Source: Bdellovibrionota bacterium (lineage in GTDB: Bacteria > Bdellovibrionota > Bdellovibrionia > Bdellovibrionales > JAEYZS01). Taken from it: a stretch of DNA of 64,000 nt. The translations under genes and the position numbers were made by a program. Shown here in pieces: positions 35,576-56,684 of this stretch. The stretch is from contig JAZKEU010000013.1 of NCBI GenBank assembly GCA_040386775.1, positions 76,005 through 140,004 on the forward strand, read 5' to 3'. Under the pieces are notes generated by a model, which was not told the DNA's origin, did no database searches, and saw only the letters and a list, made by a program, of their open reading frames with translations. How positions within the stretch are numbered: position 1 is the stretch's first letter; each line of letters begins with the position of its first letter.

Positions 35576-35618
35576 ATCTCTTATGATCTCATAAAAGGTA
35601 CTTTAACGGGGGGATTCT

Positions 35619-36953
35619 ATGATTCGTAATATTTTTGTGGCAGCTGTTGCTGTTCTTTTAACATCTGCATCTTTTGCAGCTAACGTTCAAGAGGGTGCTT
35701 TTGTTCTTGATCAAGATAAATCTATTTTGAGATCTATGGCGGTAAATAAGGATTTAACTTTTGACCATCCAAGCATCAATGGATTTGAAGTTTATGGTCC
35801 AAAGGGTCTTTATCAATTTTTAAGAAATTCTGGAGTTCAATTTGTTGAGTTGAACAGCTTGCAGTTAATGACAGAGGATGTTCTTGATTATCCATCTCCA
35901 GAGCAAATCGAAGCACAACTTAAAGATCTAAATGCGGCCTATCCGCAATTGACTCAATTGATTGAAATCGGTCGTACCAATGATGGACGTCCACTTTTAG
36001 TTTTAAAAATTTCTGACAACGCGGCTATCGATGAGACTGAGCCAGAGTTTAAATATATTTCTTCTATGCACGGTGATGAGATCACAGGCCGTGAAGTGAT
36101 GGTGGCTCTTGCGCAAAAGATCTTAAAAGAATATTCAGTAAATCCAGCTATCAAGCAATTAGTTGATTCTACAGAAATCTACATCATGGCTTCGATGAAT
36201 CCAGATGGTTCTTATAGAAGACAAAGAGGAAATGCAAACTACGCAGACTTAAATAGAGATTTCCCTGATTTTTCTACCAGCGATAATCAAGACACTCCGG
36301 CAGGTCGTGAAATCGAAACTCAACATATTATGAAGTTTCAAAAATCAAGACAGTTTGCTCTTTCTACAAACTTTCACGGTGGTGCAGAAGTAATGAACTA
36401 TGCTTGGGATACAATTCCAGACAAGCATCCGTTCAATGATCTACTTATTGAAATTGCCTTGGATTACGCAAATAAAGCAACCTACATCAAAAATAACGGT
36501 GAATTTGAGAATGGAATCACGAATGGTTACGCTTGGTATGAAGTGAATGGTGGAATGCAAGACTGGAGTTACCATTGGTACAACGATCTTCAGTTCACGG
36601 TTGAGCTTTCAACCTCAAAATGGCCATCATACAGCAAAATTCCATACTACATTGAGCAAAACCAAGAGGCATTGATTTCTCAAATTGGTTATATTCATCA
36701 AGGTGCTGGATTTAAATTTGATCAATCTGGAATTGATGGAAAAGTTCAAATTTCGAAAATTGAAGGAAATGCTTTGAGAAATCTTGGTATTTACAATTTT
36801 AGAAATTCTGAATTCTACAAAGTATTACCAAAAGGTGAATATACGTTTGCAATCAACAGCCAGCAATTGAAAGGTACTAAAAGCATTCAAGTTGCAGTTG
36901 AAAAGCAAGACAACAAGTCCATTACTCCAAACTATGTGATTTTATCAGAATAG
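35619..36953 (+). CDS. secreted M14 zinc carboxypeptidase
   Basis: Signal peptide. HxxE zinc motif SSMHGDEITGRE, NPDG, and third His in NFHGGAEVMNY. C-terminal beta-sandwich-like tail. Confidence 0.9.
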   Translation: MIRNIFVAAVAVLLTSASFAANVQEGAFVLDQDKSILRSMAVNKDLTFDHPSINGFEVYGPKGLYQFLRNSGVQFVELNSLQLMTEDVLDYPSPEQIEAQLKDLNAAYPQLTQLIEIGRTNDGRPLLVLKISDNAAIDETEPEFKYISSMHGDEITGREVMVALAQKILKEYSVNPAIKQLVDSTEIYIMASMNPDGSYRRQRGNANYADLNRDFPDFSTSDNQDTPAGREIETQHIMKFQKSRQFALSTNFHGGAEVMNYAWDTIPDKHPFNDLLIEIALDYANKATYIKNNGEFENGITNGYAWYEVNGGMQDWSYHWYNDLQFTVELSTSKWPSYSKIPYYIEQNQEALISQIGYIHQGAGFKFDQSGIDGKVQISKIEGNALRNLGIYNFRNSEFYKVLPKGEYTFAINSQQLKGTKSIQVAVEKQDNKSITPNYVILSE

Positions 36954-43936: not shown

Positions 43937-45223
43937 TTACTTCACCATGCCCTGTTTCATGATGTCGGAAATGGTTCCCATGTTCATCTTATTTAAGAAA
44001 TTGGAGAAGCTCATCCATACGGCGATGCCGTTGAGGTCGCTGAATTGTGGTGGCATGTAAGTGGGTTTTTCGATTAATCCCATTTTTGAATATTCGTAGA
44101 GAACGGGAACATCTTCCAGAGTGACTTTGCCGGCAAATAAGAATGGAATCATTTCTGGTTTTCCAATCCGTATGGCACTTCGAATAAAATTGTATGTTCC
44201 AATAAAACCTTTTGAGTAAGAAATGTCTTTGGTGAAGGGAGCTCCGCCTTCAATTACTCCACCACGGAATAATCTATGAGCGTTTTTAAAAGCTTCGATT
44301 TCTGTTTGATTGAGGTTTCTAAAATAATCATAAATATGAAGAAAGCTTGCGCCACTCTCAGCCATTTCACAAGCCATCAAGCGATTATTGATTTTTCGAA
44401 GTCTATCGGGAGTGCAAACAAAAGTGAAAACTTCCATTAAGAAAGCCAAGCCTTCTTGCACGGCCGTTGTACACGGAGGACCTTTTGATAACCATTTTGC
44501 ATAAGGTTGATTCATTCCATTGAGAGTTGTTCCCACATGGACCCATCCTTCATGAACTTCGAAAATATCCATATCTCTTTGAGAAAATTTTAACCCACGT
44601 TTTATCTTGATGTAATTTGATCCTGCGGCAGCATCTGATAAAATACCATCATCTAATTTTACGGTAACCTCGGTATCACCAAAGTATTTTTTTAATTTTT
44701 CGTTGAGAGTTTCAACAACATCTTCGGATGGAATATTTTTTATGTAGCAAACGCCAAGATCTGAATTTTCAATTGAGATTAAAATCTGATTGAGCATCAC
44801 GCCGGCCTCGATCAATGAGGTTTTGTTATCGATCAATAGATCGTTGGCACTTCCAAAAAGAGCTTTAGAGTATTTATAAAAATCATGAGTGGCGCGACTC
44901 ATTAGCATGCGGACGACGTCTTCGTACTGCTGGCAATTGCGAATCAACATTTTTGCGATAGGTTCATTTTTTCCAAGAGTTTTTTCAATTCTACTTCTGA
45001 TCTCTTGAAATTCTTTGATCTTGGCTTCGGCATCAAATTTGAGAGGAATATTGTCGTAATAGTTCTTTCCAATTTTTGGAAGTTCTTTGTAATTTGATTT
45101 TTTGAATTTTTCAAAGATATCGTCTTTCCATTTTATGGAATCAAGAATTTGGATAGGCCTTTGTGCTTCAACCAAGGCTTTCGAAAATTCTTCGACTGCT
45201 GTAAAAAGTTTTTTGTCGGACAT
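43937..45223 (-). CDS. DUF1704 / QEGLA-motif protein (MATCAP-like putative metallocarboxypeptidase)
   Basis: Contains the QEGLA motif (TTAVQEGLAFLME) and an HExxxH motif (VHEGWVHVG); 428 aa. Confidence 0.78.
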   Translation of the reverse strand: MSDKKLFTAVEEFSKALVEAQRPIQILDSIKWKDDIFEKFKKSNYKELPKIGKNYYDNIPLKFDAEAKIKEFQEIRSRIEKTLGKNEPIAKMLIRNCQQYEDVVRMLMSRATHDFYKYSKALFGSANDLLIDNKTSLIEAGVMLNQILISIENSDLGVCYIKNIPSEDVVETLNEKLKKYFGDTEVTVKLDDGILSDAAAGSNYIKIKRGLKFSQRDMDIFEVHEGWVHVGTTLNGMNQPYAKWLSKGPPCTTAVQEGLAFLMEVFTFVCTPDRLRKINNRLMACEMAESGASFLHIYDYFRNLNQTEIEAFKNAHRLFRGGVIEGGAPFTKDISYSKGFIGTYNFIRSAIRIGKPEMIPFLFAGKVTLEDVPVLYEYSKMGLIEKPTYMPPQFSDLNGIAVWMSFSNFLNKMNMGTISDIMKQGMVK

Positions 45224-45227
45224 CCTA

Positions 45228-45659
45228 TTACTTTATCGGACAAAACGTAATGAGATTAAGACCAATATCCGGTACAAATTCTCTCTCTATTTTATCCTTA
45301 AAAACTGTCATTGAAAGTTCTACGGTTACGGCCACGTCGGCCTCAAAGAGATGCCCACCAAAAGCGTTAAAGTCCGTATCACCAAGCGTAACATGCGAGT
45401 GAACTACAGGTTTGCCTTCAAACCATGTGAGGCTTCCAGTGAGGTTTAAGAGTTCTACTTCGCGTTCGAATGTCTCACGATGATACTCTTTTTTATCGAG
45501 ATGATAGAATCCTAGGTGAGAATTCTTAAGAGCACCTAGTCCGTGATAAAAGGCCCCACCGATTTTTTGATCAACCATAAATTTTTCTAAAAGTGCATGG
45601 AGCTTTTCATCTTTGTCGAATTTTAGGTAATATCCGTATTCAGTCTTACGATGTTCCAT
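45228..45659 (-). CDS. PPC (DUF296) domain protein
   Basis: 143 aa. GSLTWFEGKPVVHSHVTLGD..FGGHLFEADVAVTVEL matches PPC/DUF296. A 4-nt gap separates it from the DUF1704 gene. Confidence 0.68.
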   Translation of the reverse strand: MEHRKTEYGYYLKFDKDEKLHALLEKFMVDQKIGGAFYHGLGALKNSHLGFYHLDKKEYHRETFEREVELLNLTGSLTWFEGKPVVHSHVTLGDTDFNAFGGHLFEADVAVTVELSMTVFKDKIEREFVPDIGLNLITFCPIK

Positions 45660-45763: not shown

Positions 45764-46543
45764 ATGAAGTTCTTGGTGTATTTACTCTTGTTCAATCTCA
45801 TTTCTGTGTCATCAATGGCGCAGTTTTCATCTTGGTCATCAAGACAAGGACCGGCTTCACTTAGACAAAAACAAGATAATAACTATCGCGATGTTTGGTC
45901 GCTCTCTGATTATTTTGAAACTCAAAGAAAACACAGATTGATGGATCAGTGGCTAGCAATGAACTCATCTTCAAACCCTTTTGAATTCTATCTTGGGGCA
46001 CAGACAACAACTTATGATGCCATCGTCAAAGAGAATGGCGTTGTTGGTGCAGAGAAAGAATACCGCATGAATCGCGCGCAAGTGGGAGCCTATGCTTCGA
46101 TCATTGGTTTGGAAGGTGAGTACGCAGATTCTGGCGAAGAATACACCAGTGGAGAAGGATCGATTCATCTAAGACTCTTGGGACGCAACAGCCAAGGAAC
46201 AAACCTCACAGGATTTTACGGTATTCGTTATAAAAAAGACGAAGCCCTAACAACTAGTGAAGAAAAATTTCAACAGAATTTCTATGGCGGCAGCCTTACG
46301 CTCAATCTTACTAAATTTTTTGGTATCATTGGCACTTATAAAAAGTACGAAAAAGATAAATCGGATATCGGGAGTGAACTAGAAAGTGAACGCATGGAAG
46401 GAACGTTCTTTATCGACTTTAGATTTGTACGTGTTTATGGAACTTATTTTCAAGAAAAAGAAGATTACACCAACATCGTAATACCAGTTACAAAAGAAAT
46501 CGAACGCGACGGTATCTTTGGTGGTCTAAAGATATTTTTCTAA
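45764..46543 (+). CDS. putative outer-membrane beta-barrel protein
   Basis: Signal peptide, alternating Y/G/T-rich beta-strand-like pattern, and a C-terminal aromatic residue (GGLKIFF). Confidence 0.45.
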   Translation: MKFLVYLLLFNLISVSSMAQFSSWSSRQGPASLRQKQDNNYRDVWSLSDYFETQRKHRLMDQWLAMNSSSNPFEFYLGAQTTTYDAIVKENGVVGAEKEYRMNRAQVGAYASIIGLEGEYADSGEEYTSGEGSIHLRLLGRNSQGTNLTGFYGIRYKKDEALTTSEEKFQQNFYGGSLTLNLTKFFGIIGTYKKYEKDKSDIGSELESERMEGTFFIDFRFVRVYGTYFQEKEDYTNIVIPVTKEIERDGIFGGLKIFF

Positions 46544-46878: not shown

Positions 46879-49002
46879 CTATGGGGAGCTTGCTGGGGTT
46901 CTGTCGTAATTCTCAAAAAAGCGTTTTTCGAATTTTTTGAAAGATTCTAAGCGAACCTCGCCGCCCAATTCTTCTTTGAGACGGGCCATCGTTTCTTTTT
47001 CTGTGGCACGCATTTTTTCTAATCCGCTTTTAACGAAATCGGGATGAATGTTTTCTTTCTTTTCTGCAAGGTCCTTAACAAGAGCGGCAGAAACGGCGAG
47101 AGCCTTTGTGGATCTATCTTCGTCCAATCGCCATGTTTTAAGCAAATACAATGTGGCGGCTTTTGACCAAGCTTCTTGGTAAGTTGCATCAGTATATAAG
47201 GTTGTGAAGTCTTTTGTGTAAATCACAGCATCTACATAATTACTTTTGAGTTCTGTTTCCTGTGGAGGATTAAACTTTCTCTTTTCTAATTCTACCTTTG
47301 TATTATTAATGGCGTTTGCAACCATTCTTTCGATAGGTGAATTACCATCCATATGCTCGAGAGCTTTTTCTCCACCAATGGCTGCAAATATTCCCAAGGC
47401 TAATCCAAGCATCAAAGATGTTGTTCTCTCTCTTGTTCTCGTAGAGATTCTACCTTTCGCTTTGCCATCAATCACTTTATTTGCAGAGGCTTGCCCGGAA
47501 TTTCCAATAACTTCTTGAAAGACTTGATCCAACTCTGAACGTTTGGATTTCCAATCATCATTCATAGCCACAGTAGGGCATAGGGACTCTACTTGCAGAA
47601 GAATTTCTTTGGCCATTTGAGTTTTTTTACTCATTATCTCATCAATCAATTCTTTTTCGAATTTTTTGATGGCTTCAGCTGTTTGGAGCTTCAGTTGATT
47701 TGTTCGGTCTGTTTCTTTTTGGGTGATTTGTGCTTTTTCTTCTTCTATCTTTGCTTTCAAAGCTTGAAGTTGCGAGCTCATCTCTTTTTCTTTGTCTTCT
47801 TTTTCTTGTTTCATCGCGCTTAATGCCAGAGTCAGCTTCTCAGAGTCATTCTTGTTCTTAGACAAAGTCTTTTCCTGCTCTGCCAACTCTTTTTTCATAA
47901 GTTCTATGTGAGATAGCATATTTTTTTCATCAGATTTGATTTTTTCGTAATTCGATTTTCTAGCCTCGTGGTCATCTTGTTGGGATTTGATCTCTCTTTT
48001 TAATTCAGCAAGATTTTTGTCAGCTTTAAGCTTTTCTTCCTCAGCTGCTTGGATGTCTTCACGAACTCTAGAGGTTTTTGCTTTTAATGAATCCAATTGC
48101 GTTAAGGCAGCGGTCTTTTCTTTTTCAATTTTTTCATATGTAGCCTTCAAAAGTTCTTGGCCCTTCTTTTCGATAATTTCATCAGCTTCAGATAATCTTT
48201 TTGTTTTAATCATCTGCCCTTGAGCTTCAGAGTCTTTTAGAATTTCAATACATTTTTCTTCAGTGGATTTACGAAGTTCTCTAGCATCTTTTTCAGCTTG
48301 GTCTCTTAGGGTTTGGGTTTGTGCGCGAGTTTCTTGCAGAAGTTTTAAACTTTCTTCTCTCGCTTCTTCAAATATTTTTTGAGCTTCTACATTTGCAGCT
48401 TTTAGACGTTCTTGAAAATGCTTTTCTGCATTTTGCTCAGTTTCTATAGCATGTTTGTAGGCACTTTGTGCTTTCGATTCAGCTTGAAGTTCCGCTTTGT
48501 GTAAAATTTGAAGAGCTTGCTTGTTGGCTTCAATCAGAGATTTATCTGATTCCTTTTGCAAACTCGGTGGGACAAATTGCGCAGCCAGAGGTTGAGACAG
48601 TGGATCGGCGACTAAGGTTTTCGCCATAGGGGTTTTTGGAGATTCTGGTAATTGTGGAAGGGAAGTGGGCATTGTAAGCTTTTTCTCTTCAATACTTACT
48701 CGGATTGTTGGCCCGTCTTCACCCAACTGAATAACATCTTCCGACTCAAATGGAAAAATTGTTTTTACTGGAAGTCTTTTGCCTTGCTTATAAGTTCCAT
48801 TAGAAGATCCAATATCTTCAAAAAATAGTTTATGATTTTCAGTAGTTATTTTTAAATGGTGACGACTCACCTGAGGGTGAAGGACGTTGACATCACTGTT
48901 CGCGTGACGTCCGATGACGAAGCTCTCCATCTTGACTTTTTTATGAGTCGTAGTTCCATCAATCGTGATGGTCACTTGAATGGATGGCTTTGTGTCTCCC
49001 AC
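46879..49002 (-). CDS. FHA-domain protein with long coiled coil, one TM helix and a C-terminal extracytoplasmic domain
   Basis: FHA motifs GRHANSDVNV..VSRHHLKI..FEDIGSSNGTY. About 400 aa of E/K/Q-rich heptad-like sequence. TM segment TTSLMLGLALGIFAAIGG. GTG start preceded by GAAGGA. Confidence 0.8.
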   Translation of the reverse strand: MGDTKPSIQVTITIDGTTTHKKVKMESFVIGRHANSDVNVLHPQVSRHHLKITTENHKLFFEDIGSSNGTYKQGKRLPVKTIFPFESEDVIQLGEDGPTIRVSIEEKKLTMPTSLPQLPESPKTPMAKTLVADPLSQPLAAQFVPPSLQKESDKSLIEANKQALQILHKAELQAESKAQSAYKHAIETEQNAEKHFQERLKAANVEAQKIFEEAREESLKLLQETRAQTQTLRDQAEKDARELRKSTEEKCIEILKDSEAQGQMIKTKRLSEADEIIEKKGQELLKATYEKIEKEKTAALTQLDSLKAKTSRVREDIQAAEEEKLKADKNLAELKREIKSQQDDHEARKSNYEKIKSDEKNMLSHIELMKKELAEQEKTLSKNKNDSEKLTLALSAMKQEKEDKEKEMSSQLQALKAKIEEEKAQITQKETDRTNQLKLQTAEAIKKFEKELIDEIMSKKTQMAKEILLQVESLCPTVAMNDDWKSKRSELDQVFQEVIGNSGQASANKVIDGKAKGRISTRTRERTTSLMLGLALGIFAAIGGEKALEHMDGNSPIERMVANAINNTKVELEKRKFNPPQETELKSNYVDAVIYTKDFTTLYTDATYQEAWSKAATLYLLKTWRLDEDRSTKALAVSAALVKDLAEKKENIHPDFVKSGLEKMRATEKETMARLKEELGGEVRLESFKKFEKRFFENYDRTPASSP

Positions 49003-49014
49003 TTTAATTCCTTC

Positions 49015-49944
49015 TTATGAAACCTTGAATGGACGAGTTTTCGTCAGTTCACGGCCTCTAGTTTGAGTGCCCAATTCTGTATTGATAGAATCTTCTGCTA
49101 AGGCTTCTAATGGATCACGATTTTCATCAAACGCCGCATCCATTAATGGGAAATTGTTGTTGTCGCTTCTGTACCATAAAAGATCTAATGAACTCTCAAA
49201 GCGATCTACCATCGAAACATAAGCTCTCTCCGGAGAAAATAGAACATTCACTACGTGAGCCATCAACGAGAATACAATTCCTGCGATAGAGGTCTTCATC
49301 GCAAATGAAATTTCATATAGGAAGCGATCCATAATGTTTTTTGTAGCGTCGATATCTTGTAAGTTCATTCCTCCTAAGCCCTCAAGGCCCCCAGCAATAC
49401 CAATGAATGTACCCAAAATACCACCGATGACAAAAAGACCTGGCAGGATATTAATAAGGTCGTTCAATCCTGTGATGGGAATGATGCCAAACACTCTATT
49501 GAAGCATGGATTATGGTGGAACGTAGCCTTTGTGATGTTTAATAATTTTGGATTGCTTTCATTCCATTTTAAAAATTTCAATTGCTTTAAAATATCTCTC
49601 ACTAGCCATGCACAGCCTTGTTTTACCAGAAATATACGGTCGCTTGTTTTCATTACGCCATCATTTTTGCGACGATTCGTTCTATCACGCACGGCAAAGG
49701 CTTCATAAAAGCTTTTTTCTAGCAGTTTTTTAGAGAGAGCGTAGAAAGAGACATTTTTTACGGCACCGGGAACTTCTGCATCGATAAATTTATTCACACG
49801 TTTTTCAAATTCTCTTGAAAACCACTCGTGTCTTTTTACGGTGTACCAAACTAATGTTCTGAACATTACGCCGAATACAAATACAACGGCCATTGCATAG
49901 GGCAAGCCGAGAATAAAATATTCTGCAAAGAGTTTAGTTGTCAT
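49015..49944 (-). CDS. MotA/TolQ/ExbB-family-like 3-TM proton-channel protein
   Basis: TM1 is at the N-terminus, followed by a ~130-aa cytoplasmic loop. Then PGLFVIGGILGTFIGIAGGL and AMKTSIAGIVFSLMAHVVNVLF, which resemble the TolQ/ExbB TM2-TM3 signatures (GxxGT..G; A..T..G....A....N..F). Confidence 0.6.
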   Translation of the reverse strand: MTTKLFAEYFILGLPYAMAVVFVFGVMFRTLVWYTVKRHEWFSREFEKRVNKFIDAEVPGAVKNVSFYALSKKLLEKSFYEAFAVRDRTNRRKNDGVMKTSDRIFLVKQGCAWLVRDILKQLKFLKWNESNPKLLNITKATFHHNPCFNRVFGIIPITGLNDLINILPGLFVIGGILGTFIGIAGGLEGLGGMNLQDIDATKNIMDRFLYEISFAMKTSIAGIVFSLMAHVVNVLFSPERAYVSMVDRFESSLDLLWYRSDNNNFPLMDAAFDENRDPLEALAEDSINTELGTQTRGRELTKTRPFKVS

Positions 49945-50004
49945 AGGGCCTTCTCCTCTTAACCTTTGGTAGCGCGCTTTAGATATCTAAACGCGTGCTA
50001 AAAT

Positions 50005-51525
50005 TTACTTACCATCCACACTGAAGCGTACGATCACGCGTTGAGCCTTGCGGCAATCATTCACGCGACAGAATTCCGCTGCAGATGCAATATTTCTATC
50101 TTTAACTTTTAAAACGTCGAGGAAGCTTCTTCCAGACACCTTCATAAGAGACATCAACTCTTGCTGATTTGTAAAACCAGAAGCTTTTCCGTCTACGATA
50201 TGTTGGAAGATTGCGTTCGCGCGTTTGTAACTCAAATCCATATTGTATTTAAGAGCAGCCTTGTCTTCAGGCTTTGTGCTCTTGGGATCGATGAATCGAC
50301 CTTGATAGGTTGGCGAAGCAAACCCAATAATTTCTACATTTGAAATTTTACTTGCCACTTTAGGATTGCCAAATAAAGACTTAGAATAAATTGGCATTGC
50401 TCTTTCAATCACGTTCTTCATTTCAGGTTTTAGATTTGCTGAGTTACTATCAAAGTAAGCATCACCAAAATCCAAAACCACGTCGCCAGTTCCCATATCC
50501 ACGTCGGCTTTGATTCCAGCTTTCGCAAATCCAGCTTTGATTTCTTTAGCTACGGCTTTTCTAGTATCAATTTCTTCTTTGGCTTTTGCGAGATCGCCTT
50601 CCGTAGATTTCAACTGACCTTTTAGACCGGCAACTTTTCCTTGGAGTTCTGCTGCTTTCTTGCCAGCTTCCGCACGGAACTGAGCTTCTTTTGCGGCTCT
50701 AGCAGCGGCTTCTTCTTTGGTTTGTGAAAGCTCCGCCTGCGTTCCGGCAAGAGCAGAATTCAACTGATTCAACTCTTGGTTCGCCTGAGCCAATTGTTGA
50801 TTGTACTGTTGATTTGTAGATTGAAGAGCTGCTAAACGTTGTTCATTCTGCGCTTTAATAGTCTGAACTTGTTTATTGTAGGCAGTCTTCGTCATTTTAT
50901 TTTTCTTATAAGCAAATTGAAGCTCTTTCATTTTCTTTTCAAGGGCAGCCTTGTTGGCAGCGATTTGACGATTTCCTTCTTCTATCAATTGAGTCTTTTG
51001 AGAAATGTCAGATTTCAATGTACCGATATCTTTTTGTTGTTCGTCAATTTGTGTATCTTGATCTGTAATGATTTCGTTTCTTGTCACGATTCTAGATTTT
51101 GCTACTTTGTTAGCATTCAAAATATTACGAACCATCTGTTGATATTTATTCAGAGCTTGAGCTTTCTTTCCATTCTCAGTAGCTTCGTTAGCCAAGCGAT
51201 CTTTTTCTGATTTGGCTTCTTCTTGGAGAAGAGTCAACTTGTCCATAAGATCTTGATATTCTTGCTGTTCGTCTTTGGCGGCGGTGTCCATGTAGTTTTT
51301 CTTCACAGACTCGTACATCTTCAATTGATTTTCTAATTCCTCAACGCGAGTAGAAAGTTTTTGATTGTCAGATTGGCTTTTGATTGCATCTGTTCCAGTG
51401 CGTAAACTTGCCATCACGTACAGCAATAAAAAAATTGTACTCAAACCCAAAAATAAATCTGAGTACGATGTCCAAAAACTATCATTGCCTTCGGAGTTTT
51501 TATTTTTTTCGTAATTAAATGCCAT
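50005..51525 (-). CDS. MotB-like protein: TM with conserved Asp, ~300-aa coiled coil, C-terminal OmpA-like peptidoglycan-binding domain
   Basis: FWTSYSDLFLGLSTIFLLLYVMA matches the MotB/TolR-type TM (YxD motif). Long Q/K/E/A heptad region. C-terminal FDSNSANL...VEIIGFASPTY...DLSYKRANAI resembles the OmpA family. ATG at 51525 with AAGGG SD. Confidence 0.75.
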   Translation of the reverse strand: MAFNYEKNKNSEGNDSFWTSYSDLFLGLSTIFLLLYVMASLRTGTDAIKSQSDNQKLSTRVEELENQLKMYESVKKNYMDTAAKDEQQEYQDLMDKLTLLQEEAKSEKDRLANEATENGKKAQALNKYQQMVRNILNANKVAKSRIVTRNEIITDQDTQIDEQQKDIGTLKSDISQKTQLIEEGNRQIAANKAALEKKMKELQFAYKKNKMTKTAYNKQVQTIKAQNEQRLAALQSTNQQYNQQLAQANQELNQLNSALAGTQAELSQTKEEAAARAAKEAQFRAEAGKKAAELQGKVAGLKGQLKSTEGDLAKAKEEIDTRKAVAKEIKAGFAKAGIKADVDMGTGDVVLDFGDAYFDSNSANLKPEMKNVIERAMPIYSKSLFGNPKVASKISNVEIIGFASPTYQGRFIDPKSTKPEDKAALKYNMDLSYKRANAIFQHIVDGKASGFTNQQELMSLMKVSGRSFLDVLKVKDRNIASAAEFCRVNDCRKAQRVIVRFSVDGK

Positions 51526-51696
51526 ATTTAACCCTTTACACGTCAAATTGCTTATCGACGGATATAAAGGGGATTTAAATACTTGAAGAATTCTATTGGA
51601 CTTACGTTGAGTGAATTTCTAAAAATTTAAAGGGAACACAAGACAAAGGTGCGGAAAGGTGCCAGCCTACTTGTGTTTCGCAGCTGCTAAATGCAG

Positions 51697-52281
51697 TTAA
51701 TTTTTAGTATGACAATCGTTATTAGAAATTGTGTTCACGTAGGTATTGATTTGTTCCGCGTTAATAAAAGTAGGATCATCGGGAAATATACACAACAAGG
51801 TGTTTGTTTTTAAAGCCCAAATTTGATCCTGAACAAGGCCGCTCACCATGGTGACAGTTCCGTGAAAGAATTTTCTAGCTCCGTGAGTAGCATCCACGTA
51901 ATCATCAGTACCATTAAAAACAGCCTGTCCAATATACGTGTTAGATATTATGGTTCCTGTGCCTACGCAGGCAGTTCCTGAGTAAGTCATGTTTCCGGAA
52001 TTTTGCGATACGGTTGTACTATTGACATTCGCGATTTGATAGAAATTTTTTGTAGATGAAGTGGAACTCAATTGAACGCAGTTGCCTTGTATCCACAGTC
52101 CATGGAGTGGCGTAAGACTTTGTAGTGCGCCGGCCCCGTTATTTCCACCGTTGTTACCATTTCCACCGGATCCTCCACCTGAACAGTTAACAAATAGCAA
52201 GCTAGTGAGGGCCAACATACCTACAGTTAAAAAAATACTTACTGATTTATATGAAAATTTATTTCGTATTGAACCCATCAT
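51697..52281 (-). CDS. lipoprotein with G/N-rich linker, unknown function
   Basis: Lipobox LLFVNC followed by SGGGSGGNGNNGGNNGAG. Tandem ATGs at 52281/52278 after GGAG. Confidence 0.5.
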   Translation of the reverse strand: MMGSIRNKFSYKSVSIFLTVGMLALTSLLFVNCSGGGSGGNGNNGGNNGAGALQSLTPLHGLWIQGNCVQLSSTSSTKNFYQIANVNSTTVSQNSGNMTYSGTACVGTGTIISNTYIGQAVFNGTDDYVDATHGARKFFHGTVTMVSGLVQDQIWALKTNTLLCIFPDDPTFINAEQINTYVNTISNNDCHTKN

Positions 52282-52341
52282 CAACTCCAATGTATTTGTA
52301 TGCCAATAGATCGGCTTACATTGAGAAAATCTTGAGTTCTT

Positions 52342-53025
52342 TTAGCGGTGTTGTCTAGTGAATTTAGAGTGAAAATCAGGGAAAGCCGCTTCTACATTAG
52401 GCATCTCGTTTATGATGTTTAAAATGTCTAAAGATTGTCCAGTAGATTTAAAATTGCTATCCGCCACCTCAAAAATATACTGCGGCTTTATAAGCTTATT
52501 CTTATTTTGCTTCACTTTCACTAAAGATATGCCAAGATTATTTGCTATGCTTGTAATTTGCTTAGAGTTTAATGGTTCATTAAAACGGATTGTAATCAAA
52601 CCGGTAAAAAACGATAGGCTCTCTGCAGGAATTCCCTCTTCTACTTTTCTCAATCCATAAGAAGAATGTTCGATTTCACCGTTTCTTTGCATTTGTTGGA
52701 TAGTTTTTAAGAAGGGTCTAAGCTCTTTTTCACTGCTGACTTCCATAACATATACAATCTTTCCGCTATCTAAAGCTTTTTGCTGAGAAAACTCGTCTAT
52801 TCCAAGGCGCTTTGCAAGCTTATTTAGCGGTTCCATAGAGACAAAAGAAATCGCATTTCTTGCGATTTGTACTTGGTTGGTTCTTTCTTTTTCAATCTGG
52901 TAAGTTACAGAATTGGAATCTAACCTAAACAAAGTCGCACAATAGCTCGCAGCATTAGCGACATTATGATATGTAAAAACACTGCTCATTAGAGAAACGA
53001 ATATAAAAAGTTTTAACATAGCCAT
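52342..53025 (-). CDS. secreted hypothetical protein
   Basis: Signal peptide MAMLKLFIFVSLMSSVFTYHNVANA. No recognisable domain. Confidence 0.5.
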   Translation of the reverse strand: MAMLKLFIFVSLMSSVFTYHNVANAASYCATLFRLDSNSVTYQIEKERTNQVQIARNAISFVSMEPLNKLAKRLGIDEFSQQKALDSGKIVYVMEVSSEKELRPFLKTIQQMQRNGEIEHSSYGLRKVEEGIPAESLSFFTGLITIRFNEPLNSKQITSIANNLGISLVKVKQNKNKLIKPQYIFEVADSNFKSTGQSLDILNIINEMPNVEAAFPDFHSKFTRQHR

Positions 53026-53231: not shown

Positions 53232-54092
53232 ATGGATAAATTTGTCGTATCGTCTGATGATTGTTTGATTCTCAAAGCTCTTAAGGATTCCAAATCTTTG
53301 CGTGAGGCGGCTCAGCTTCTGGGTTGTGACCCTGCGGGATTGGCTAGGCGTGTGCAGCATATTTCTAGTAAGCATGGATTTGTTCAGAAGGTGAATAATC
53401 GTTGGCAAATTACCTCACGAGGTATGGATTTGGTCGCTTGGACGGAATCGAGTATTTTGAGTCAGAAAAAAATATTTTCTTCAAACGATAGTCTCCGCAT
53501 TGCAAGTACAATGTGGTTTGGTGAAGAAGTTCTTATTCCTAATTTATCAAAACTCAAAGATTTTTTTAATGAAGATATATCTGTATCCCTATCTGTCCCC
53601 GATGAGGGATTCGAGTTGTCGCTGGTCAGTGGAAATGTTGATTTTGTTGTTGCCTGCCACCCCCCAGAAAATCCAGAGATTGCTCACAAACAAATAACGG
53701 AAGAAAAATGGATACTGATAGCGCCGGTATCTTGGAAAAAAAACATAAAATCAAAAAGCGAAAATATTTTAGAGTTTCTAAAAGACAAACCTTTTATTAG
53801 TCACCGTGATATCAATGTGGATTTATTTTTATCTGGTGCTGCAATCAAAAAATCAGACATCAGCATTAATAATCTTATCGGTATTCGATCGGCTGTCTGC
53901 GCGAATTTAGGGTGGAGCTTAGTTCCTAAAATCTTGGTTGATCGTCATTTGAAAAATAATGAATTGATCGAAATCCCTTATGAAATACCAACTCAAGACA
54001 GAAAAGTTTGCGTTTGGTGGCTTAGAAATCGCGATGGTTTAAAACGACAATCCAGTAAAATTTCATCTTGGATCGAAGAAGTCTGTCCATAA
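53232..54092 (+). CDS. LysR-family-like transcriptional regulator
   Basis: N-terminal HTH (SLREAAQLLGCDPAGLARRVQHIS) and a ~200-aa C-terminal substrate-binding-like region. Divergent from the 53025 gene. Confidence 0.7.
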   Translation: MDKFVVSSDDCLILKALKDSKSLREAAQLLGCDPAGLARRVQHISSKHGFVQKVNNRWQITSRGMDLVAWTESSILSQKKIFSSNDSLRIASTMWFGEEVLIPNLSKLKDFFNEDISVSLSVPDEGFELSLVSGNVDFVVACHPPENPEIAHKQITEEKWILIAPVSWKKNIKSKSENILEFLKDKPFISHRDINVDLFLSGAAIKKSDISINNLIGIRSAVCANLGWSLVPKILVDRHLKNNELIEIPYEIPTQDRKVCVWWLRNRDGLKRQSSKISSWIEEVCP

Positions 54093-54099
54093 ATTAAAT

Positions 54100-55284
54100 T
54101 CAAACGAGCTCTTCTATGCTTTTGATTGTTTCGAGAAGTGAATTGTAGTCTTGGGATTGCATAAGAATTCTTCCAAAATCTTCACCAGAGCCCTCTCGTT
54201 TTTTTACTGTCATTCCTGATTTTAAACCAGATTGTATATCCACCAGATTTGGATCTTGTAAAAGAGAAGCATAATCCGGTTCTCTTTCGACAACACCCTC
54301 TCCAGGATGTAGAATCCAAACAGCGGCGTGGCAATTTGATTTGGCTTTTACCGAAGGTGCCTTGCCACATTCGATGTCGATGAGAGTTTTCCATGGTGAA
54401 AATCCATAGCAGAGTTCGATCAACTTCATAATGTATCCACCCGGAGGTCTAATGGCGATTTCTCCAAAGAGAATATTTTTTTCAGTCAAGTAGTACTCAA
54501 CGTGAGCAATACCATTTTTGATTCCAAAGGTTTTGATAATTTGCGAGTTGAATTTTGAAAGTTTATCTTTAGAAATTTCATCGAGTTTTGCAGGAACAAT
54601 ATTGCATACGTGGTGAGTATGATAGTCTGTTGTATTTGAAAAAATAATCTCGCCATTGCAAACAAAACTTTCAACGCTGTACTCTTTTCCTTTAATGTAT
54701 TTTTCGGCTAGCATATTGGGTTTCATTTCAGAAAGGCCATCAATGCTATTGGCGATCACAAGACCGCGACTGCCCGAGCTGTCTCGCTCTTTTAGAACAA
54801 TAGGAAATCCAAATTTCTGTGCTAACTCTTCAGGAGTTGTGGCTTCATCAATCAAAATAAAATCTGTAATCGGGATATGATGCTTTCTGGCATGATTTTT
54901 CATTTCAAATTTGTCGTGGCAAAGATTGAATTTTTCTAGATCAGCTTTTTTTGAAAGGGATTTTTTAAGAATTTGTTGAGCAATAGGAATTGATTTTTCT
55001 GTGAGAGGTATAATGGCATCGAAGGACATGTTTTTAAACATGTCATAGTTTCCATTAAAAACCATTTCTGAATATTTTTTTGACCCAAATGATTTAGTCG
55101 AGAATTTTGGTTTTTTTAAATTTAGAACATAAGTTTCAAATCCCAATTCAACTGCTTTTTGAATAGGGTCGAGCCTCTTTCCAACAAATAAAATCGATTT
55201 ACCGCTCTTCAATATTAAATTCTCGCTGTTCACTTTGTTCTTCGGTGTACACAGAAAAATAAATTCTACCGATTTCGCGGCCAT
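54100..55284 (-). CDS. ATP-grasp domain protein (carboxylate-amine ligase type), substrate unknown
   Basis: PIVLKERDSSGSRGL, EKYIKGKEYSVESF and HVEYYL..ILFGEIAIRPPGG are ATP-grasp motifs. The ATG at 55284 overlaps the upstream gene by 86 nt; GTG and TTG alternatives lie near 55215..55240. Confidence 0.72.
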   Translation of the reverse strand: MAAKSVEFIFLCTPKNKVNSENLILKSGKSILFVGKRLDPIQKAVELGFETYVLNLKKPKFSTKSFGSKKYSEMVFNGNYDMFKNMSFDAIIPLTEKSIPIAQQILKKSLSKKADLEKFNLCHDKFEMKNHARKHHIPITDFILIDEATTPEELAQKFGFPIVLKERDSSGSRGLVIANSIDGLSEMKPNMLAEKYIKGKEYSVESFVCNGEIIFSNTTDYHTHHVCNIVPAKLDEISKDKLSKFNSQIIKTFGIKNGIAHVEYYLTEKNILFGEIAIRPPGGYIMKLIELCYGFSPWKTLIDIECGKAPSVKAKSNCHAAVWILHPGEGVVEREPDYASLLQDPNLVDIQSGLKSGMTVKKREGSGEDFGRILMQSQDYNSLLETIKSIEELV

Positions 55285-56308
55285 CTGTCGTCTCTATTTG
55301 TACACGCCAGTCTCCGGGCTGGTATTTGGACTTGTACGTAAACCCTCGAAAGCCATCCTCTCTGCCGCCAGAGATCGTCATTGGAATCAAATCCCATGTT
55401 GTCCAGCCTTGAATTGGATCATCATGCATCCATCGAATATTCACTTGATCAGAAAATCTTGCTGGCGAATAAATATTTGTGAAGAAGTAAATGTTATCAC
55501 CGAATTGGGCCTCAAAAGCTTGATCACCGTTTTGCCAGAATTTCCAGATAGGCTTTTGGTGGTACAAAAGATACTTCCCATCTTTTTTTTCTACGTTGTG
55601 ATAAATTCCCATGTATTTAGCGGAGAGCGGAACGGGCGGAATCCATCCGGCAAAATAAAATAATATAAAAGCAGATTGGACCACTACCATTGGCATGAAC
55701 AGCTGCTTTTGAATGAATACTTTTTCAATATCTCTGGGAAGAATTTTTTTAAATAAAAAGTACGCACAGCCAATTGTTGATAACACAGCAAGCGCAAAAG
55801 GAATCAGCCCAATGAAACCCAAAATTGTTGGATAGAGCATAGAGAAGAAAGCATTCAAACAAAGAATGAACATCCCAAACTTTAGCCAGTGACCAGCACT
55901 CTGAACCCTCGACATTTCGTTGGCTATGAGAATTGCGCCAATGATAATAATAAAAACAAAAGAACTCAGCAGTGATGAGCTTTTAAAATAAAAAATAGAA
56001 TACAGACTTAAGAGTGAACCAAACAAAAAGTGTACAACGAGCTGACGGTACTCCCAAATTTTGGTAAGCTTCGCAGGAATTTGAATTTTCTGAAATGAAT
56101 TTAGAACATCATAATAAAGAATCATTCCAATGATTGTCAGATAGGCAACCTGTTGAAAGATTGCAAAAAGATCATCGGGGTCAGAAAGTGTGACGAGATC
56201 AAATAAAAATCCGCCCACGAAAAATGCAATCATCAAATGAGCTTCATGCTTGTTGTATAATTCAGAAAATTTAGATTTTAAGTGCGCAGGTTTATAATAA
56301 TTTTCCAT
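55199..56308 (-). CDS. polytopic membrane protein with C-terminal DUF2914-like domain
   Basis: About 8 TM helices, then a soluble C-terminus (ISGGREDGFRGFTYKSKYQPGDWRVQIETTDGREIGRIYFSV) resembling DUF2914. Start trimmed to the ATG at 56308, because the ORF-track start at 56491 would run through the divergent gene start. Confidence 0.55.
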   Translation of the reverse strand: MENYYKPAHLKSKFSELYNKHEAHLMIAFFVGGFLFDLVTLSDPDDLFAIFQQVAYLTIIGMILYYDVLNSFQKIQIPAKLTKIWEYRQLVVHFLFGSLLSLYSIFYFKSSSLLSSFVFIIIIGAILIANEMSRVQSAGHWLKFGMFILCLNAFFSMLYPTILGFIGLIPFALAVLSTIGCAYFLFKKILPRDIEKVFIQKQLFMPMVVVQSAFILFYFAGWIPPVPLSAKYMGIYHNVEKKDGKYLLYHQKPIWKFWQNGDQAFEAQFGDNIYFFTNIYSPARFSDQVNIRWMHDDPIQGWTTWDLIPMTISGGREDGFRGFTYKSKYQPGDWRVQIETTDGREIGRIYFSVYTEEQSEQREFNIEER

Positions 56309-56489
56309 ATGTAGAGGGTTCCATTTTTGTAGGTGTAGGGCAATTGTTGAGTATGATGTATAAATGAATTTTTTTTCATATAGTTTAGTAAAATCAATAT
56401 GCTTAATGCAACGCGCATTAGTTGAATTCTGCCCCTCAATAAAACTATATTCAGTTGAACTGTTTAACAAACTGAAAGGAATCACTATC

Positions 56490-56684
56490 ATGAAACTTTA
56501 CGTAAAAAAATCGTTAGGTGTTTTTGCTCTAGTAGCTGTATTAGCAACTTCAATGACTGCATGTTTAAAAGATAAAACTGCTGAAACAACAACTGAAGAA
56601 ACTGCTGTAGAGCAAACTGCTCCAACAGAAGGTCAACCAACAGAAGCGCCTCCTGCTGATGCTGGAACAACTCAATCTAACTAA
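56490..56684 (+). CDS. small lipoprotein with T/E/P-rich tail
   Basis: ATG at 56490 with AAAGGAA SD. MKLYVKKSLGVFALVAVLATSMTAC lipobox-like signal. 64 aa. Confidence 0.5.
   Translation: MKLYVKKSLGVFALVAVLATSMTACLKDKTAETTTEETAVEQTAPTEGQPTEAPPADAGTTQSN

What the first reader, a model, noticed from the sequence alone, without database searches (positions are those of the whole stretch)
46879..51546. Orphan stator-like module: MotB-like protein with a ~300-residue coiled-coil spacer, a TolQ/ExbB/MotA-like channel and an FHA-coiled-coil-TM protein
Three co-directional minus-strand genes are separated by only 60 and 12 nt.

1. 50005..51525 encodes a MotB/TolR-type N-terminal TM helix with the conserved Asp (FWTSYSDLFLGL...). 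About 300 residues of heptad-like Q/K/E/A sequence follow, then an OmpA-like peptidoglycan-binding domain.
2. 49015..49944 encodes a 3-TM protein. Its last two helices carry TolQ/ExbB-like signatures (GGILGTFIGIAGGL; AMKTSIAGIVFSLMAHVVNVLF).
3. 46879..49002 encodes an N-terminal FHA domain, about 400 residues of coiled coil, one TM helix and a ~170-residue C-terminal domain with no match I recognise.

Several features differ from the known 5:2 ion-driven motors (MotAB, TolQR, ExbBD, ZorAB):
- The gene order is B-then-A.
- The long coiled coil sits on the B-like (PG-anchored) subunit, not on the A subunit as in ZorA.
- No flagellar, Tol-Pal, TonB, gliding (Agl/Glt) or Zorya effector genes are nearby.

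The FHA domain implies coupling to Ser/Thr phospho-signalling. My working hypothesis is a proton-motive-force-driven, envelope-spanning sensor or actuator of unknown function, for example envelope surveillance, prey or phage response, or surface motility. Two upstream same-strand genes for a lipoprotein and a secreted protein (51697..53025) and a divergent LysR-type regulator may belong to the same unit.
Basis: partly seen in the sequence, partly recalled or inferred. Interest (0 to 1): 0.72.

Follow-up and report, generated by a model that had tools for sequence, protein, structure and literature searches.

The report
ZorAB-like envelope motor with FHA partner
Three tightly linked genes, conserved across predatory Bdellovibrio-type bacteria, encode a predicted cell-wall-anchored, ion-driven rotary motor. 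It is related to the Zorya anti-phage motor but built differently and paired with a signalling protein, and nobody appears to have described or tested it.

Summary
In detail: three minus-strand genes with 60-nt and 12-nt gaps.

- **B-like protein:** an N-terminal TM helix with a conserved Asp, a proline-free helical rod of about 275 residues, and a periplasmic peptidoglycan-binding domain.
- **A-like protein:** 309 aa, three TM helices.
- **Third protein:** FHA domain, coiled coil, one TM helix, then a helical domain of about 125 residues with no structural relative.

By profile and predicted fold, the nearest characterised relatives are ZorA and ZorB, not TolQ/ExbB/MotA. The ZorAB ion-path and peptidoglycan-binding residues are almost invariant. 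Three defining Zorya features fail: A has no tail, B carries a long spacer, and there are no effector genes. The family is chromosomal and was not found on phages, plasmids or viral contigs.

B lies directly upstream of A in 102 of 102 loci. An FHA partner follows in 82 of 103. More distant relatives have a receiver domain, a cNMP-binding protein, a GGDEF protein or nothing. The lipoprotein, secreted-protein and LysR neighbours are not part of the unit.

The B. bacteriovorus HD100 orthologs are Bd1167–Bd1169, annotated as "microtubule binding", "hypothetical" and "Ala/Glu-rich", and uncharacterised.

Best reading: a new, non-defence variant of the 5:2 motors, gated by cytoplasmic signalling. 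Its function is unknown.

The parts
50005..51525 (-). B subunit gene (ZorB/MotB-like). The ORF extends to a TTG at 51546, but the conserved start is the ATG at 51525.
   Evidence: ORF. PADLOC ZorB1 E 1.1e-29 in two stretches that flank the rod. The N-terminus 'MAFNYEK..SFWTSYSDLF' is conserved in homologs. Lies directly upstream of A in 102/102 loci.
51397..51465 (-). B transmembrane helix with the ion-coupling Asp (Asp30 of the ORF, codon 51457-51459), equivalent to ZorB Asp26.
   Evidence: Hydropathy. Alignment to ZorB 8qyd_F. Asp conserved in 35/36 homologs. Coordinates checked. The role of ZorB D26 is from PMC11946911.
50563..51396 (-). B periplasmic helical/coiled-coil spacer, about 275 residues.
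   Evidence: No Pro across residues 50-340, with segmented heptad registers. The spacer is 275-481 aa in homologs, median 330. ZorB has no linker (PMC11946911).
50008..50562 (-). B C-terminal ZorB-type (OmpA-fold-related) peptidoglycan-binding domain.
   Evidence: Family profile vs PDB: ZorB 8vvi_A E 1.2e-6, then ZorB 8qyd_F, Pal and OmpA weakly. Y434/N435/L438/R442, equivalent to ZorB PG-binding Y151/N152/L155/R159, are 38/38 conserved. Two invariant Cys at 493 and 498.
49015..49944 (-). A subunit gene (tail-less ZorA-like, 3 TM helices, 309 aa).
   Evidence: PADLOC and NCBIfam ZorA models E 1e-9 to 1e-10, below family cut-offs. Family profile hits only ZorA in PDB, 6.5e-10. AF2 model pLDDT 89; Foldseek ranks ZorA, then ExbB, then TolQ.
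49225..49467 (-). A TM2-loop-TM3 core, carrying the equivalents of ZorA P136, I144, T147 and S184.
   Evidence: P168 80/80, I176 75/80, T179 79/80, S219 76/80. Roles in ZorA are from PMC11946911.
46879..49002 (-). Third gene: FHA, coiled coil, TM helix and periplasmic helical domain (707 aa).
   Evidence: ORF. Syntenic directly downstream of A in 82/103 loci. Identity 22-52% across genomes.
48688..49002 (-). FHA domain, predicted cytoplasmic.
   Evidence: Pfam FHA 1.2e-13, above the gathering score. GR / SR-x-H / NG(T/S) residues invariant in 33/33 homologs.
47578..48564 (-). Cytoplasmic coiled-coil rod of the FHA protein, about 330 residues.
   Evidence: Composition and heptad analysis. Rod length 432-824 aa in homologs, not correlated with B spacer length.
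47350..47424 (-). Single TM helix of the FHA protein, with a GxxxG motif.
   Evidence: Hydropathy and an upstream Arg/Lys-rich stretch suggest N-in topology. GxxxG found in 25/33 homologs. Sequence checked.
46903..47280 (-). Predicted periplasmic helical-bundle domain of the FHA protein, about 125 residues, fold unassigned.
   Evidence: It is the best-conserved part of the protein. AF2 pLDDT above 90 over the domain. No PDB fold match: best E 1.9, probability 0.16 or less.

Best explanation
**What it is.** The three genes form one operon-like unit encoding a distinct, chromosomally inherited branch of the 5:2 ion-driven rotary motors. Its nearest characterised relative is ZorAB of the Zorya defence system.

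**Inferred by homology to ZorAB.** Five copies of the 3-TM A protein surround a dimer of the B protein in the inner membrane. Ion flow past B-Asp30, through the conserved A Thr179/Ser219 filter, makes A rotate relative to B. B is fixed to the cell wall by its ZorB-type peptidoglycan-binding domain.

**How it differs from Zorya.**
- B carries a periplasmic coiled-coil rod of 275-480 residues between the membrane and the wall-binding domain.
- A has no cytoplasmic tail.
- There are no nuclease or other effector genes.
- The gene after A encodes a lineage-specific signalling module. In the Bdellovibrio-type lineage it is a membrane protein with a cytoplasmic FHA (phosphothreonine-binding) head on a long coiled coil and a small, novel periplasmic domain. 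In more distant relatives it is a stand-alone receiver domain, a cNMP-binding protein or a GGDEF protein, or it is absent.

**My inference on direction of signalling.** Most of these partners are signal-receiving domains rather than output domains. I therefore think cytoplasmic signals (Ser/Thr phosphorylation in this organism) gate or position the motor, and the mechanical output is exerted in the periplasm through the long B rod on the cell wall. On this reading it is an envelope actuator used in the free-living attack phase, not an immune sensor.

**Shown versus inferred.** Gene structure, synteny, homology and residue conservation are shown. The 5:2 assembly, ion drive, PG binding, direction of signalling and physiological role are inferred.
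For: **Synteny and inheritance**
- B lies directly upstream of A in 102/102 loci with room. An FHA domain lies directly downstream in 82/103.
- Intergenic gaps are mostly 20 nt or less.
- Identity across Bdellovibrionota: A 63-87%, B 45-70%, FHA protein 22-52%.
- No relatives in viral contigs, plasmids or phages. The flanking genes differ between genomes and are housekeeping genes here.

**Homology**
- PADLOC ZorB1 1.1e-29 and ZorA 1.6e-9.
- The A-family profile hits only ZorA in PDB, 6.5e-10.
- The B C-terminal profile hits ZorB, 1.2e-6.
- The A model (pLDDT 89) matches ZorA, ExbB and TolQ folds with probability about 1.

**Functional residues defined experimentally in ZorAB (PMC11946911) are conserved**
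- B Asp, 35/36.
- A Pro/Ile/Thr/Ser, 75-80 of 80.
- PG-binding Tyr/Asn/Leu/Arg, 38/38.

**Partner proteins**
- FHA pThr-binding residues, 33/33.
- Variable partners: REC 7e-28, cNMP-binding twice, GGDEF.

**Expression and context**
- HD100 orthologs Bd1167/Bd1168 fall to 0.64x at 30 min of predation relative to attack phase (p 3e-4 and 5e-3; Lambert 2010 supplement).
- FHA/pThr signalling already gates prey invasion in Bdellovibrio through DgcB (PMC6733907).
Against: - There is no experimental evidence for assembly, ion flow, PG binding or any phenotype.
- Generic Pfam MotA_ExbB and MotB_plug hits are below gathering thresholds, and NCBIfam Zor models score far below their cut-offs.
- A fully extended rod of 275-480 residues would be about 40-70 nm (my estimate). 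That is longer than the roughly 9 nm from inner membrane to PG quoted for E. coli (PMC11946911), so the geometry is unexplained.
- The third gene is variable or absent (L040, L042, L044), and one subclade has lost the pThr-binding residues. The FHA link may therefore be accessory.
- GGDEF is an output domain, which fits the opposite direction of signalling.
- No Bd11xx gene is among the 140 validated predation-defective genes in the Tn-seq study, so any role in predation is not strong under those conditions.
- The expression change is modest.
Confidence: 0.55

Rival explanations
1. Same motor, opposite direction of signalling. Like Zorya, the PG-anchored B rod senses envelope perturbation (prey contact, osmotic or cell-wall stress). 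Motor activation is relayed into the cytoplasm, where the FHA-coiled-coil protein recruits phosphoproteins, or in other lineages a GGDEF protein makes c-di-GMP.
For: - The closest homologs are ZorAB, which work in this direction (PMC11946911).
- The FHA protein has a long cytoplasmic rod of 430-820 residues, reminiscent of the ZorA tail supplied in trans.
- A GGDEF neighbour in L038 is an output enzyme.
- Bdellovibrio uses pThr/FHA and c-di-GMP signalling at prey encounter.
Against: - FHA, stand-alone REC and cNMP-binding domains are signal receivers with no output domain.
- A itself has no tail to transmit rotation.
- The GGDEF gene is separated by 130-146 nt and was seen in one lineage only.
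Confidence: 0.25
2. It is a divergent Zorya-type anti-phage defence system in which the FHA-coiled-coil protein replaces ZorC/D/E as the effector or adaptor.
For: - The best HMM matches for both A and B are Zorya models.
- The modular third gene echoes the modularity of Zorya (PMC11890865).
Against: - No nuclease, helicase or other effector is present, and the FHA protein has no PADLOC hit.
- Scores are far below the NCBIfam Zor cut-offs.
- A lacks the tail that is essential for Zorya defence.
- The system is vertically conserved, at 63-87% identity for A, across a whole family, and sits in changing housekeeping contexts rather than defence islands.
- It is absent from phages, plasmids and viral contigs.
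Confidence: 0.1
3. It is a Tol/Ton-like force transducer for outer-membrane or cell-wall homeostasis or division. The long B rod takes the place of TolA/TonB, and the FHA protein is a division- or polarity-linked regulator.
For: - The A fold also matches ExbB and TolQ.
- A periplasm-spanning helical element, as in TolA, is present, here on B.
- The system behaves like a conserved core gene set.
Against: - The sequence profile does not reach TolQ or ExbB.
- No tolB, pal or TonB-dependent receptor genes are linked.
- The tip of B is a PG-binding domain, not a TonB/TolA-type C-terminal domain.
- Expression falls after prey entry, and the microarray gives no sign of a rise in host-independent growth.
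Confidence: 0.07
4. The coiled-coil proteins are cytoskeletal or structural, as older annotations imply ('microtubule binding protein', 'crescentin-like', 'large Ala/Glu-rich protein'), and the adjacency to a small membrane protein is incidental.
For: - Annotations of Bd1167 and Bd1169, and the remark in Lambert 2010.
- Weak SMC/Rad50-type hits to the rod.
Against: - Those hits are driven by coiled-coil composition.
- B has a conserved TM helix with Asp and a ZorB-type PG-binding domain with invariant PG-binding residues, which places the rod in the periplasm.
- Adjacency with A holds in 102/102 loci.
Confidence: 0.03

Closest known systems
ZorAB, the core motor of Zorya anti-phage systems (E. 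coli type I, PDB 8QYD; Shewanella type I, 8VVN; Sulfuricurvum kujiense type II, 8VVI)
   Same: - It is the nearest relative by HMM, by family profile and by predicted fold.
- The A subunit has 3 TM helices.
- The TM Asp of B, the Pro/Ile/Thr/Ser ion-path residues of A, and the Tyr/Asn/Leu/Arg PG-binding residues of B are all conserved.
- The third component is modular.
   Different: - Gene order is B then A.
- A has no 70-nm helical tail. Where tails exist in the family they are disordered and acidic or Pro-rich.
- B has a 275-480-residue rod, whereas the ZorB PG-binding domain is fused directly to the TM helix.
- There is no ZorC/D/E/F/G.
- Scores are far below the NCBIfam Zor cut-offs.
- It is vertically inherited and not found on mobile elements.
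ExbBD-TonB and TolQR-TolA
   Same: - It is a three-part system: a 5:2-type motor plus a third single-TM protein with a long extended region.
- The A fold matches ExbB and TolQ.
- A long helical element sits in the periplasm.
   Different: - The long periplasmic element is on the B subunit itself and ends in a PG-binding domain.
- The third protein has the opposite topology: its long rod and FHA head are cytoplasmic, and only a small domain is periplasmic.
- There is no sequence-level match to ExbB or TolQ.
- No Tol-Pal or TonB-dependent receptor genes are linked.
Flagellar stators MotAB/PomAB with their signal-dependent regulators (from my own knowledge: YcgR/c-di-GMP; FlgX PilZ, PMC11725899 abstract)
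   Same: - The B subunit is PG-anchored, with a TM Asp and a region after the TM helix that weakly matches the MotB_plug model.
- The idea that small cytoplasmic signal-binding proteins act on the A subunit is precedented in these systems.
   Different: - A has 3 TM helices, not 4.
- No flagellar genes are linked.
- Pfam MotA_ExbB and MotB_plug score below threshold.
- The spacer is far longer than a MotB linker.
SiiAB of Salmonella SPI-4 (from my own knowledge; only the name appears in PMC12204202)
   Same: - Gene order is B-like then A-like.
- It is a non-flagellar, non-Tol/Ton 5:2-type motor dedicated to an envelope process.
   Different: - There is no detectable sequence relationship here: SiiA was not among the PDB profile hits.
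- There is no type I secretion or adhesin context.

Membership tests
5:2 ion-driven motor superfamily (MotA/ExbB/TolQ/ZorA with MotB/ExbD/TolR/ZorB) | A subunit with the MotA/ExbB/TolQ/ZorA membrane fold | tested here: met
   AF2 model pLDDT 89, pTM 0.80. Foldseek top hits are ZorA, ExbB and TolQ, with probability 0.97-1.00 for the leading hits and TM-scores 0.3-0.56.
5:2 ion-driven motor superfamily (MotA/ExbB/TolQ/ZorA with MotB/ExbD/TolR/ZorB) | B subunit with a single N-terminal TM helix carrying a conserved Asp | tested here: met
   Asp30 aligns with ZorB Asp26 and is conserved in 35/36 homologs.
5:2 ion-driven motor superfamily (MotA/ExbB/TolQ/ZorA with MotB/ExbD/TolR/ZorB) | Pfam MotA_ExbB / MotB_plug at gathering threshold | tested here: not met
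   MotA_ExbB scores 14.8 bits against a cut-off of 22.9. MotB_plug scores 16.5 against 24.
5:2 ion-driven motor superfamily (MotA/ExbB/TolQ/ZorA with MotB/ExbD/TolR/ZorB) | A5:B2 stoichiometry and ion-driven rotation | not testable with these tools
   This needs multimer modelling, cryo-EM or biochemistry.
Zorya anti-phage system | A and B are closest to ZorA and ZorB, with the ion-path and PG-binding residues conserved | tested here: met
   Residue roles are from PMC11946911.
Zorya anti-phage system | Curated ZorA/ZorB family cut-offs (NCBIfam) | tested here: not met
   ZorB1 scores 30.8 bits against a cut-off of 400. ZorA_2 scores 39.6 against 100.
Zorya anti-phage system | ZorA long C-terminal helical tail, essential for defence | tested here: not met
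   A ends about 70 residues after TM3. Longer family members have disordered acidic or Pro-rich extensions.
Zorya anti-phage system | ZorB PG-binding domain fused to the TM helix without a linker | tested here: not met
   The spacer is about 275 residues here and 275-481 in homologs. The ZorB architecture is from PMC11946911.
Zorya anti-phage system | Linked effector genes (ZorC/D, ZorE, ZorF/G) | tested here: not met
   There are no PADLOC hits for the FHA protein or the upstream genes. The neighbours are housekeeping genes.
Zorya anti-phage system | Patchy, island- or mobile-element-associated distribution typical of defence systems | tested here: not met
   It is conserved across Bdellovibrionota genomes in varying chromosomal contexts. 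No relatives were found in viral contigs, plasmids or phages.
Zorya anti-phage system | Protection against phage | not testable with these tools
   This needs phage challenge experiments.
Tol-Pal / Ton systems | Sequence-level TolQ/ExbB and TolR/ExbD homology, a TolA/TonB-type partner, and linked tolB-pal or receptor genes | tested here: not met
   The profile does not reach TolQ or ExbB. The third protein has the inverse topology. No such genes are linked.
FHA domain (phosphothreonine-binding) | Pfam FHA above the gathering score, with canonical Gly-Arg, Ser-x-x-His and Asn-Gly residues | tested here: met
   51.7 bits against a cut-off of 20.7. The residues are invariant in 33/33 homologs. 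They are degenerate in one metagenomic subclade.
OmpA-like peptidoglycan-binding domain | Pfam OmpA match, or equivalent PG-binding residues | tested here: inconclusive
   There is no Pfam OmpA hit for the window protein, and only a weak one in homolog L043. The profile matches the ZorB domain at 1.2e-6, and Pal/OmpA at about 0.08. The ZorB PG-binding residues are invariant.

The most novel reading that the evidence does not exclude
This is a previously unrecognised functional class of 5:2 motor. In this reading it is a signal-gated periplasmic actuator in which the B dimer's 40-70 nm coiled coil acts as a mechanical element (tether, lever or torsion rod) on the cell wall. It would be switched by phosphothreonine, cyclic-nucleotide or phospho-aspartate inputs, depending on lineage. 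Predatory Bdellovibrionota would use it during the attack or invasion phase. It would also show that ZorAB-type motors have a housekeeping, non-immune branch, from which Zorya may have been recruited or the reverse.
Probability: 0.2. Interest if true: 0.85.

Novelty: new variant of a known kind. Interest (0 to 1): 0.64.

Why it matters
- **A new member of a short list.** Only a handful of functional classes of 5:2 ion-driven motors are known: flagellar stators, Ton, Tol, gliding motors, SiiAB and Zorya. Each new one has revealed a new way of coupling membrane energy to work.
- **An unusual relative of Zorya.** This system is the closest relative of the Zorya motor, yet it is vertically inherited, lacks effectors and is wired to signalling domains. 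It could show what ZorAB-type motors do outside immunity, and how the Zorya tail and linker-less design arose.
- **Directly testable.** The orthologs Bd1167–Bd1169 exist in the genetically tractable predator B. bacteriovorus HD100. They are currently misannotated as cytoskeletal or hypothetical proteins.
- **A possible link to invasion signalling.** It may connect to the unresolved Ser/Thr-kinase–FHA signalling that licenses prey invasion.

Tried and rejected
- **Pfam alone** was nearly uninformative for A and B, with sub-threshold hits.
- **Promoter and terminator scans** found no more than shuffled controls did, so they say nothing about the transcript.
- **Word-indexed homolog searches** with the FHA protein's C-terminal region returned only 6 fragments each.
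- **Fold search of that domain** found nothing.
- **Literature searches** for Zorya-like or ZorA-like systems, for FHA plus MotA in Bdellovibrio, and for surveys of 5:2 motors found no description of this architecture.
- **Tn-seq fitness values** for the orthologs could not be retrieved. The table uses other locus tags and is truncated.
- **Length co-variation** between the B spacer and the FHA rod was tested and not found.
- **Lipoprotein, secreted-protein and LysR neighbours** were rejected as members of the unit on synteny.
- **The cytoskeletal annotation** was rejected on domain evidence.

Full report
**Observation.** The gaps are 60 and 12 nt. The first ORF begins with a TTG. Shine-Dalgarno-like motifs precede the A and FHA genes.

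Simple hydropathy and composition analysis and heptad analysis give the following.
- **B-like protein:** one TM helix (residues 28-50), then a proline-free rod with heptad-like segments up to about residue 328.
- **A-like protein:** three TM helices (about 5-36, 162-190 and 218-238).
- **Third protein:** an N-terminal FHA domain (Pfam E 1.2e-13), a coiled-coil-like region (about 147-475), and one TM helix (about 527-551). The TM helix is preceded by an Arg/Lys-rich stretch, which suggests the N-terminal part is cytoplasmic. A C-terminal domain follows.

**What the proteins are.** Generic Pfam models barely see the A and B proteins. MotA_ExbB scores E 0.024 and MotB_plug E 0.006, both below gathering scores, and OmpA gives no hit. 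Zorya models see them clearly. B matches PADLOC ZorB1 at 1.1e-29, in two stretches that flank the rod. A matches ZorA models at about 1e-9 over TM2-TM3. NCBIfam Zor models hit too, but far below their cut-offs.

- A profile of 44 family members of A hits only ZorA chains in PDB: 8qyh 6.5e-10, 8vvn 1.5e-7 and 8vvi 2e-4. No ExbB, TolQ, MotA or GldL chain is hit.
- A profile of the B C-terminal domain hits ZorB of the type II system (8vvi_A, 1.2e-6). It then hits E. coli ZorB, Pal and OmpA-family proteins weakly.
- The AlphaFold model of A is confident (pLDDT 89, pTM 0.80). Its best fold matches are ZorA, then ExbB and TolQ.

**Functional residues.** The Zorya structure paper (PMC11946911) defines these residues:
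- ZorB Asp26 is essential.
- ZorA Thr147 and Ser184 form the ion-selectivity filter.
- ZorA Pro136 is a helix kink, and Ile144 lies next to the Asp.
- ZorB Tyr151, Asn152, Leu155 and Arg159 are the PG-binding residues.

Using the alignments, these map as follows:

| ZorAB residue | Residue here | Conservation |
|---|---|---|
| ZorB Asp26 | B Asp30 | 35/36 |
| ZorA Pro136 | A Pro168 | 80/80 |
| ZorA Ile144 | A Ile176 | 75/80 |
| ZorA Thr147 | A Thr179 | 79/80 |
| ZorA Ser184 | A Ser219 | 76/80 |
| ZorB Tyr151/Asn152/Leu155/Arg159 | B Tyr434/Asn435/Leu438/Arg442 | 38/38 each |

Two Cys near the B C-terminus are invariant, which fits a periplasmic location. The FHA residues that bind phosphothreonine (Gly31-Arg32, Ser46-Arg47, His49, Asn68-Gly69-Thr70) are invariant in 33/33 homologs. 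By homology, then, this should be a working, PG-anchored, ion-driven motor with a working phosphopeptide-binding partner. That conclusion is inference, not demonstration.

**The third protein's C-terminal domain.** The roughly 125 residues after the TM helix are the best-conserved part of the protein. They fold confidently as a helical bundle (pLDDT above 90 over the domain), although the model rests on only nine sequences. No PDB structure resembles it (best E 1.9). The TM helix carries a GxxxG motif in 25/33 homologs. That suggests helix-helix packing, but the partner is unknown.

**Conservation and synteny.** The window comes from a Bdellovibrionales MAG or a close relative: there is a 99% match to JANMFM010000038.1. 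The A protein has 932 database relatives and is about 70% identical in Bdellovibrio bacteriovorus. Against a library of 1.84 billion representatives, only 254 clusters match, so the family is narrow.

I collected 127 loci carrying an A homolog. Among them:
- The B C-terminal domain ends within 250 nt upstream of A in 102 of 102 loci with room.
- An FHA domain starts within 500 nt downstream of A in 82 of 103 loci with room.

These were the lipoprotein at 51697..52290, the secreted protein at 52342..53025 and the LysR regulator at 53232..54092. The flanks differ between genomes. In this window they are ordinary housekeeping genes, with no flagellar, Tol-Pal, TonB, gliding or Zorya effector genes. 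No relative was found in viral contigs, plasmids or phage genomes.

**The wider family.** In more distant members (A 23-41% identical) the B-A pair persists. B still has the TM Asp, a long rod (up to about 480 residues in a Gammaproteobacteria MAG) and the same C-terminal domain. The third gene changes:

| Locus | Gene after A | Source |
|---|---|---|
| L041, L043 | small cNMP-binding protein, 11-13 nt after A | |
| L047 | stand-alone receiver domain, 8 nt after A | |
| L038 | multi-TM GGDEF protein, about 130-146 nt after A | |
| L040, L042, L044 | none | |

- A subclade at about 50% identity keeps an FHA-like domain that has lost the GR, SxxH and NG residues.
- One GC-rich Bdellovibrionota member (L042) has a short B with His in place of the Asp.
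- Longer A proteins carry disordered acidic or proline-rich C-terminal extensions, not a ZorA-type helical tail.
- The B spacer is 275-481 residues (median 330) and the FHA rod 432-824 (median 564). The two lengths do not co-vary (Spearman -0.14, p 0.49).

**Link to the model organism and the literature.** The identical-architecture trio in B. bacteriovorus HD100 is Bd1167, Bd1168 and Bd1169. The A protein is CAE79081.1. The neighbourhood runs Rrf2 regulator, acetyltransferase, small ORF, trio, three hypothetical genes, FtsY. [quoted passage not shown]

- That microarray shows Bd1167 and Bd1168 at 0.64x, 30 min into predation relative to attack phase (p 3e-4 and 5e-3), and Bd1169 at 0.81x (p 0.06). 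The paper's text treats Bd1167 as a 'crescentin-like' cytoskeletal candidate.
- No Bd11xx gene is among the 140 validated predation-defective genes of the Tn-seq study. I could not retrieve the individual fitness values.
- I found no paper that describes this trio as a stator-like or ZorAB-like system.
- Separately, FHA/phosphothreonine signalling is already known to gate prey invasion in Bdellovibrio through DgcB, with the kinase still unidentified (PMC6733907).

**How it most likely works.** By homology with ZorAB, I infer the following. Five A subunits surround a B dimer. Ion flow past B Asp30 drives A to rotate relative to B, and B is fixed to peptidoglycan.

Three design differences argue against a Zorya-type mechanism:
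- The tail that Zorya needs to signal into the cytoplasm is missing.
- The PG-binding domain is held on a very long rod instead of directly on the membrane helix.
- There are no effectors.

The partner genes are mostly signal-receiving modules without output domains: FHA, receiver and cNMP-binding. From that I infer that cytoplasmic signals gate or position the motor, and that the work is done in the periplasm through the B rod on the cell wall.

The opposite direction, envelope sensing relayed to the cytoplasm, remains a serious rival. The GGDEF partner and the long cytoplasmic rod of the FHA protein fit that reading.

The rod geometry is unexplained. If fully extended it would be roughly 40-70 nm by my estimate. 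That exceeds the roughly 9 nm from inner membrane to PG quoted for E. coli in PMC11946911.

**Comparison and novelty.** It works like, and is homologous to, ZorAB. It fails the features that define Zorya as a system: tail, linker-less B, effectors, curated family cut-offs, and a mobile or patchy distribution. It is not Tol/Ton or a flagellar stator either. I classify it as a new variant of a known kind, the 5:2 ion-driven motors. It is uncharacterised and misannotated in the model predator.

**Verdict.**
- The module is real, conserved and correctly delimited: high confidence.
- It is a ZorAB-like, PG-anchored, ion-driven motor: fairly high confidence.
- It is a non-defence, signal-gated envelope actuator: moderate to low confidence.
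- Its physiological role is unknown.

Noticed in passing
window 51697-52290 (-), compared with L004:5569-6415: The 197-aa lipoprotein-like gene between the secreted-protein gene and the B gene is absent from the otherwise 96-99% identical MAG contig L004. The adjacent 227-aa secreted protein is only 80% identical there. This looks like a small hypervariable spot right upstream of the trio.
   Followed up: partly
L094, L099, L103, L106, L111, L113, L114, L116, L121 (gene directly after the A homolog): A metagenomic subclade (A about 48-52% identical) has an FHA-like N-terminal domain. The canonical GR, SxxH and NG phosphothreonine-binding residues are replaced, yet the domain is conserved at 54-92% identity to the L116 copy.
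   Followed up: partly
L042:5114-6004 (+): In a GC-rich Bdellovibrionota MAG, the B homolog is only 296 aa, with no long rod, and has His in place of the TM Asp. Its A partner has a 250-residue disordered tail. This may be a degenerate or differently coupled version of the motor.
   Followed up: no
window 43937-45223 (-) and 45228-45659 (-): There is a strong bacterial homolog of the eukaryotic microtubule-associated tyrosine carboxypeptidase family (Pfam MATCAP, E 1.6e-122) next to a PCC/PPC-domain protein. The pair is also adjacent to the trio in L004 and L005.
   Followed up: no
window 45764-46543 (+): A 259-aa protein has a signal-peptide-like N-terminus and a C-terminal '...GGLKIFF'. It has no Pfam family and is convergent with the FHA gene. 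It looks like a small outer-membrane beta-barrel and is conserved next to the trio only in the closest relatives (L004, L005).
   Followed up: no
window 54100-55284 (-) and 55199-56491 (-): An ATP-grasp enzyme gene overlaps the 3' end of a multi-TM DUF2914 protein gene by 86 nt on the same strand. This could be a coupled pair, or the start of the ATP-grasp ORF may be called too far upstream.
   Followed up: no
window 34379-36953 (+): An exo-beta-N-acetylmuramidase NamZ homolog (E 2e-72) is followed by an M14 zinc carboxypeptidase. This may be a peptidoglycan-salvage or prey-wall-digestion pair.
   Followed up: no
Literature: PMC6561027 supplementary data sets (B. bacteriovorus 109J Tn-seq): Other FHA-domain proteins (Bd0472, Bd0473, and a neighbouring gene Bd0474) and the kinase candidate Bd3148 show very strong predation fitness defects (W about 0.002-0.003). 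This points to a Ser/Thr-phosphorylation/FHA network in predation that the Bd1169-type protein could plug into.
   Followed up: no
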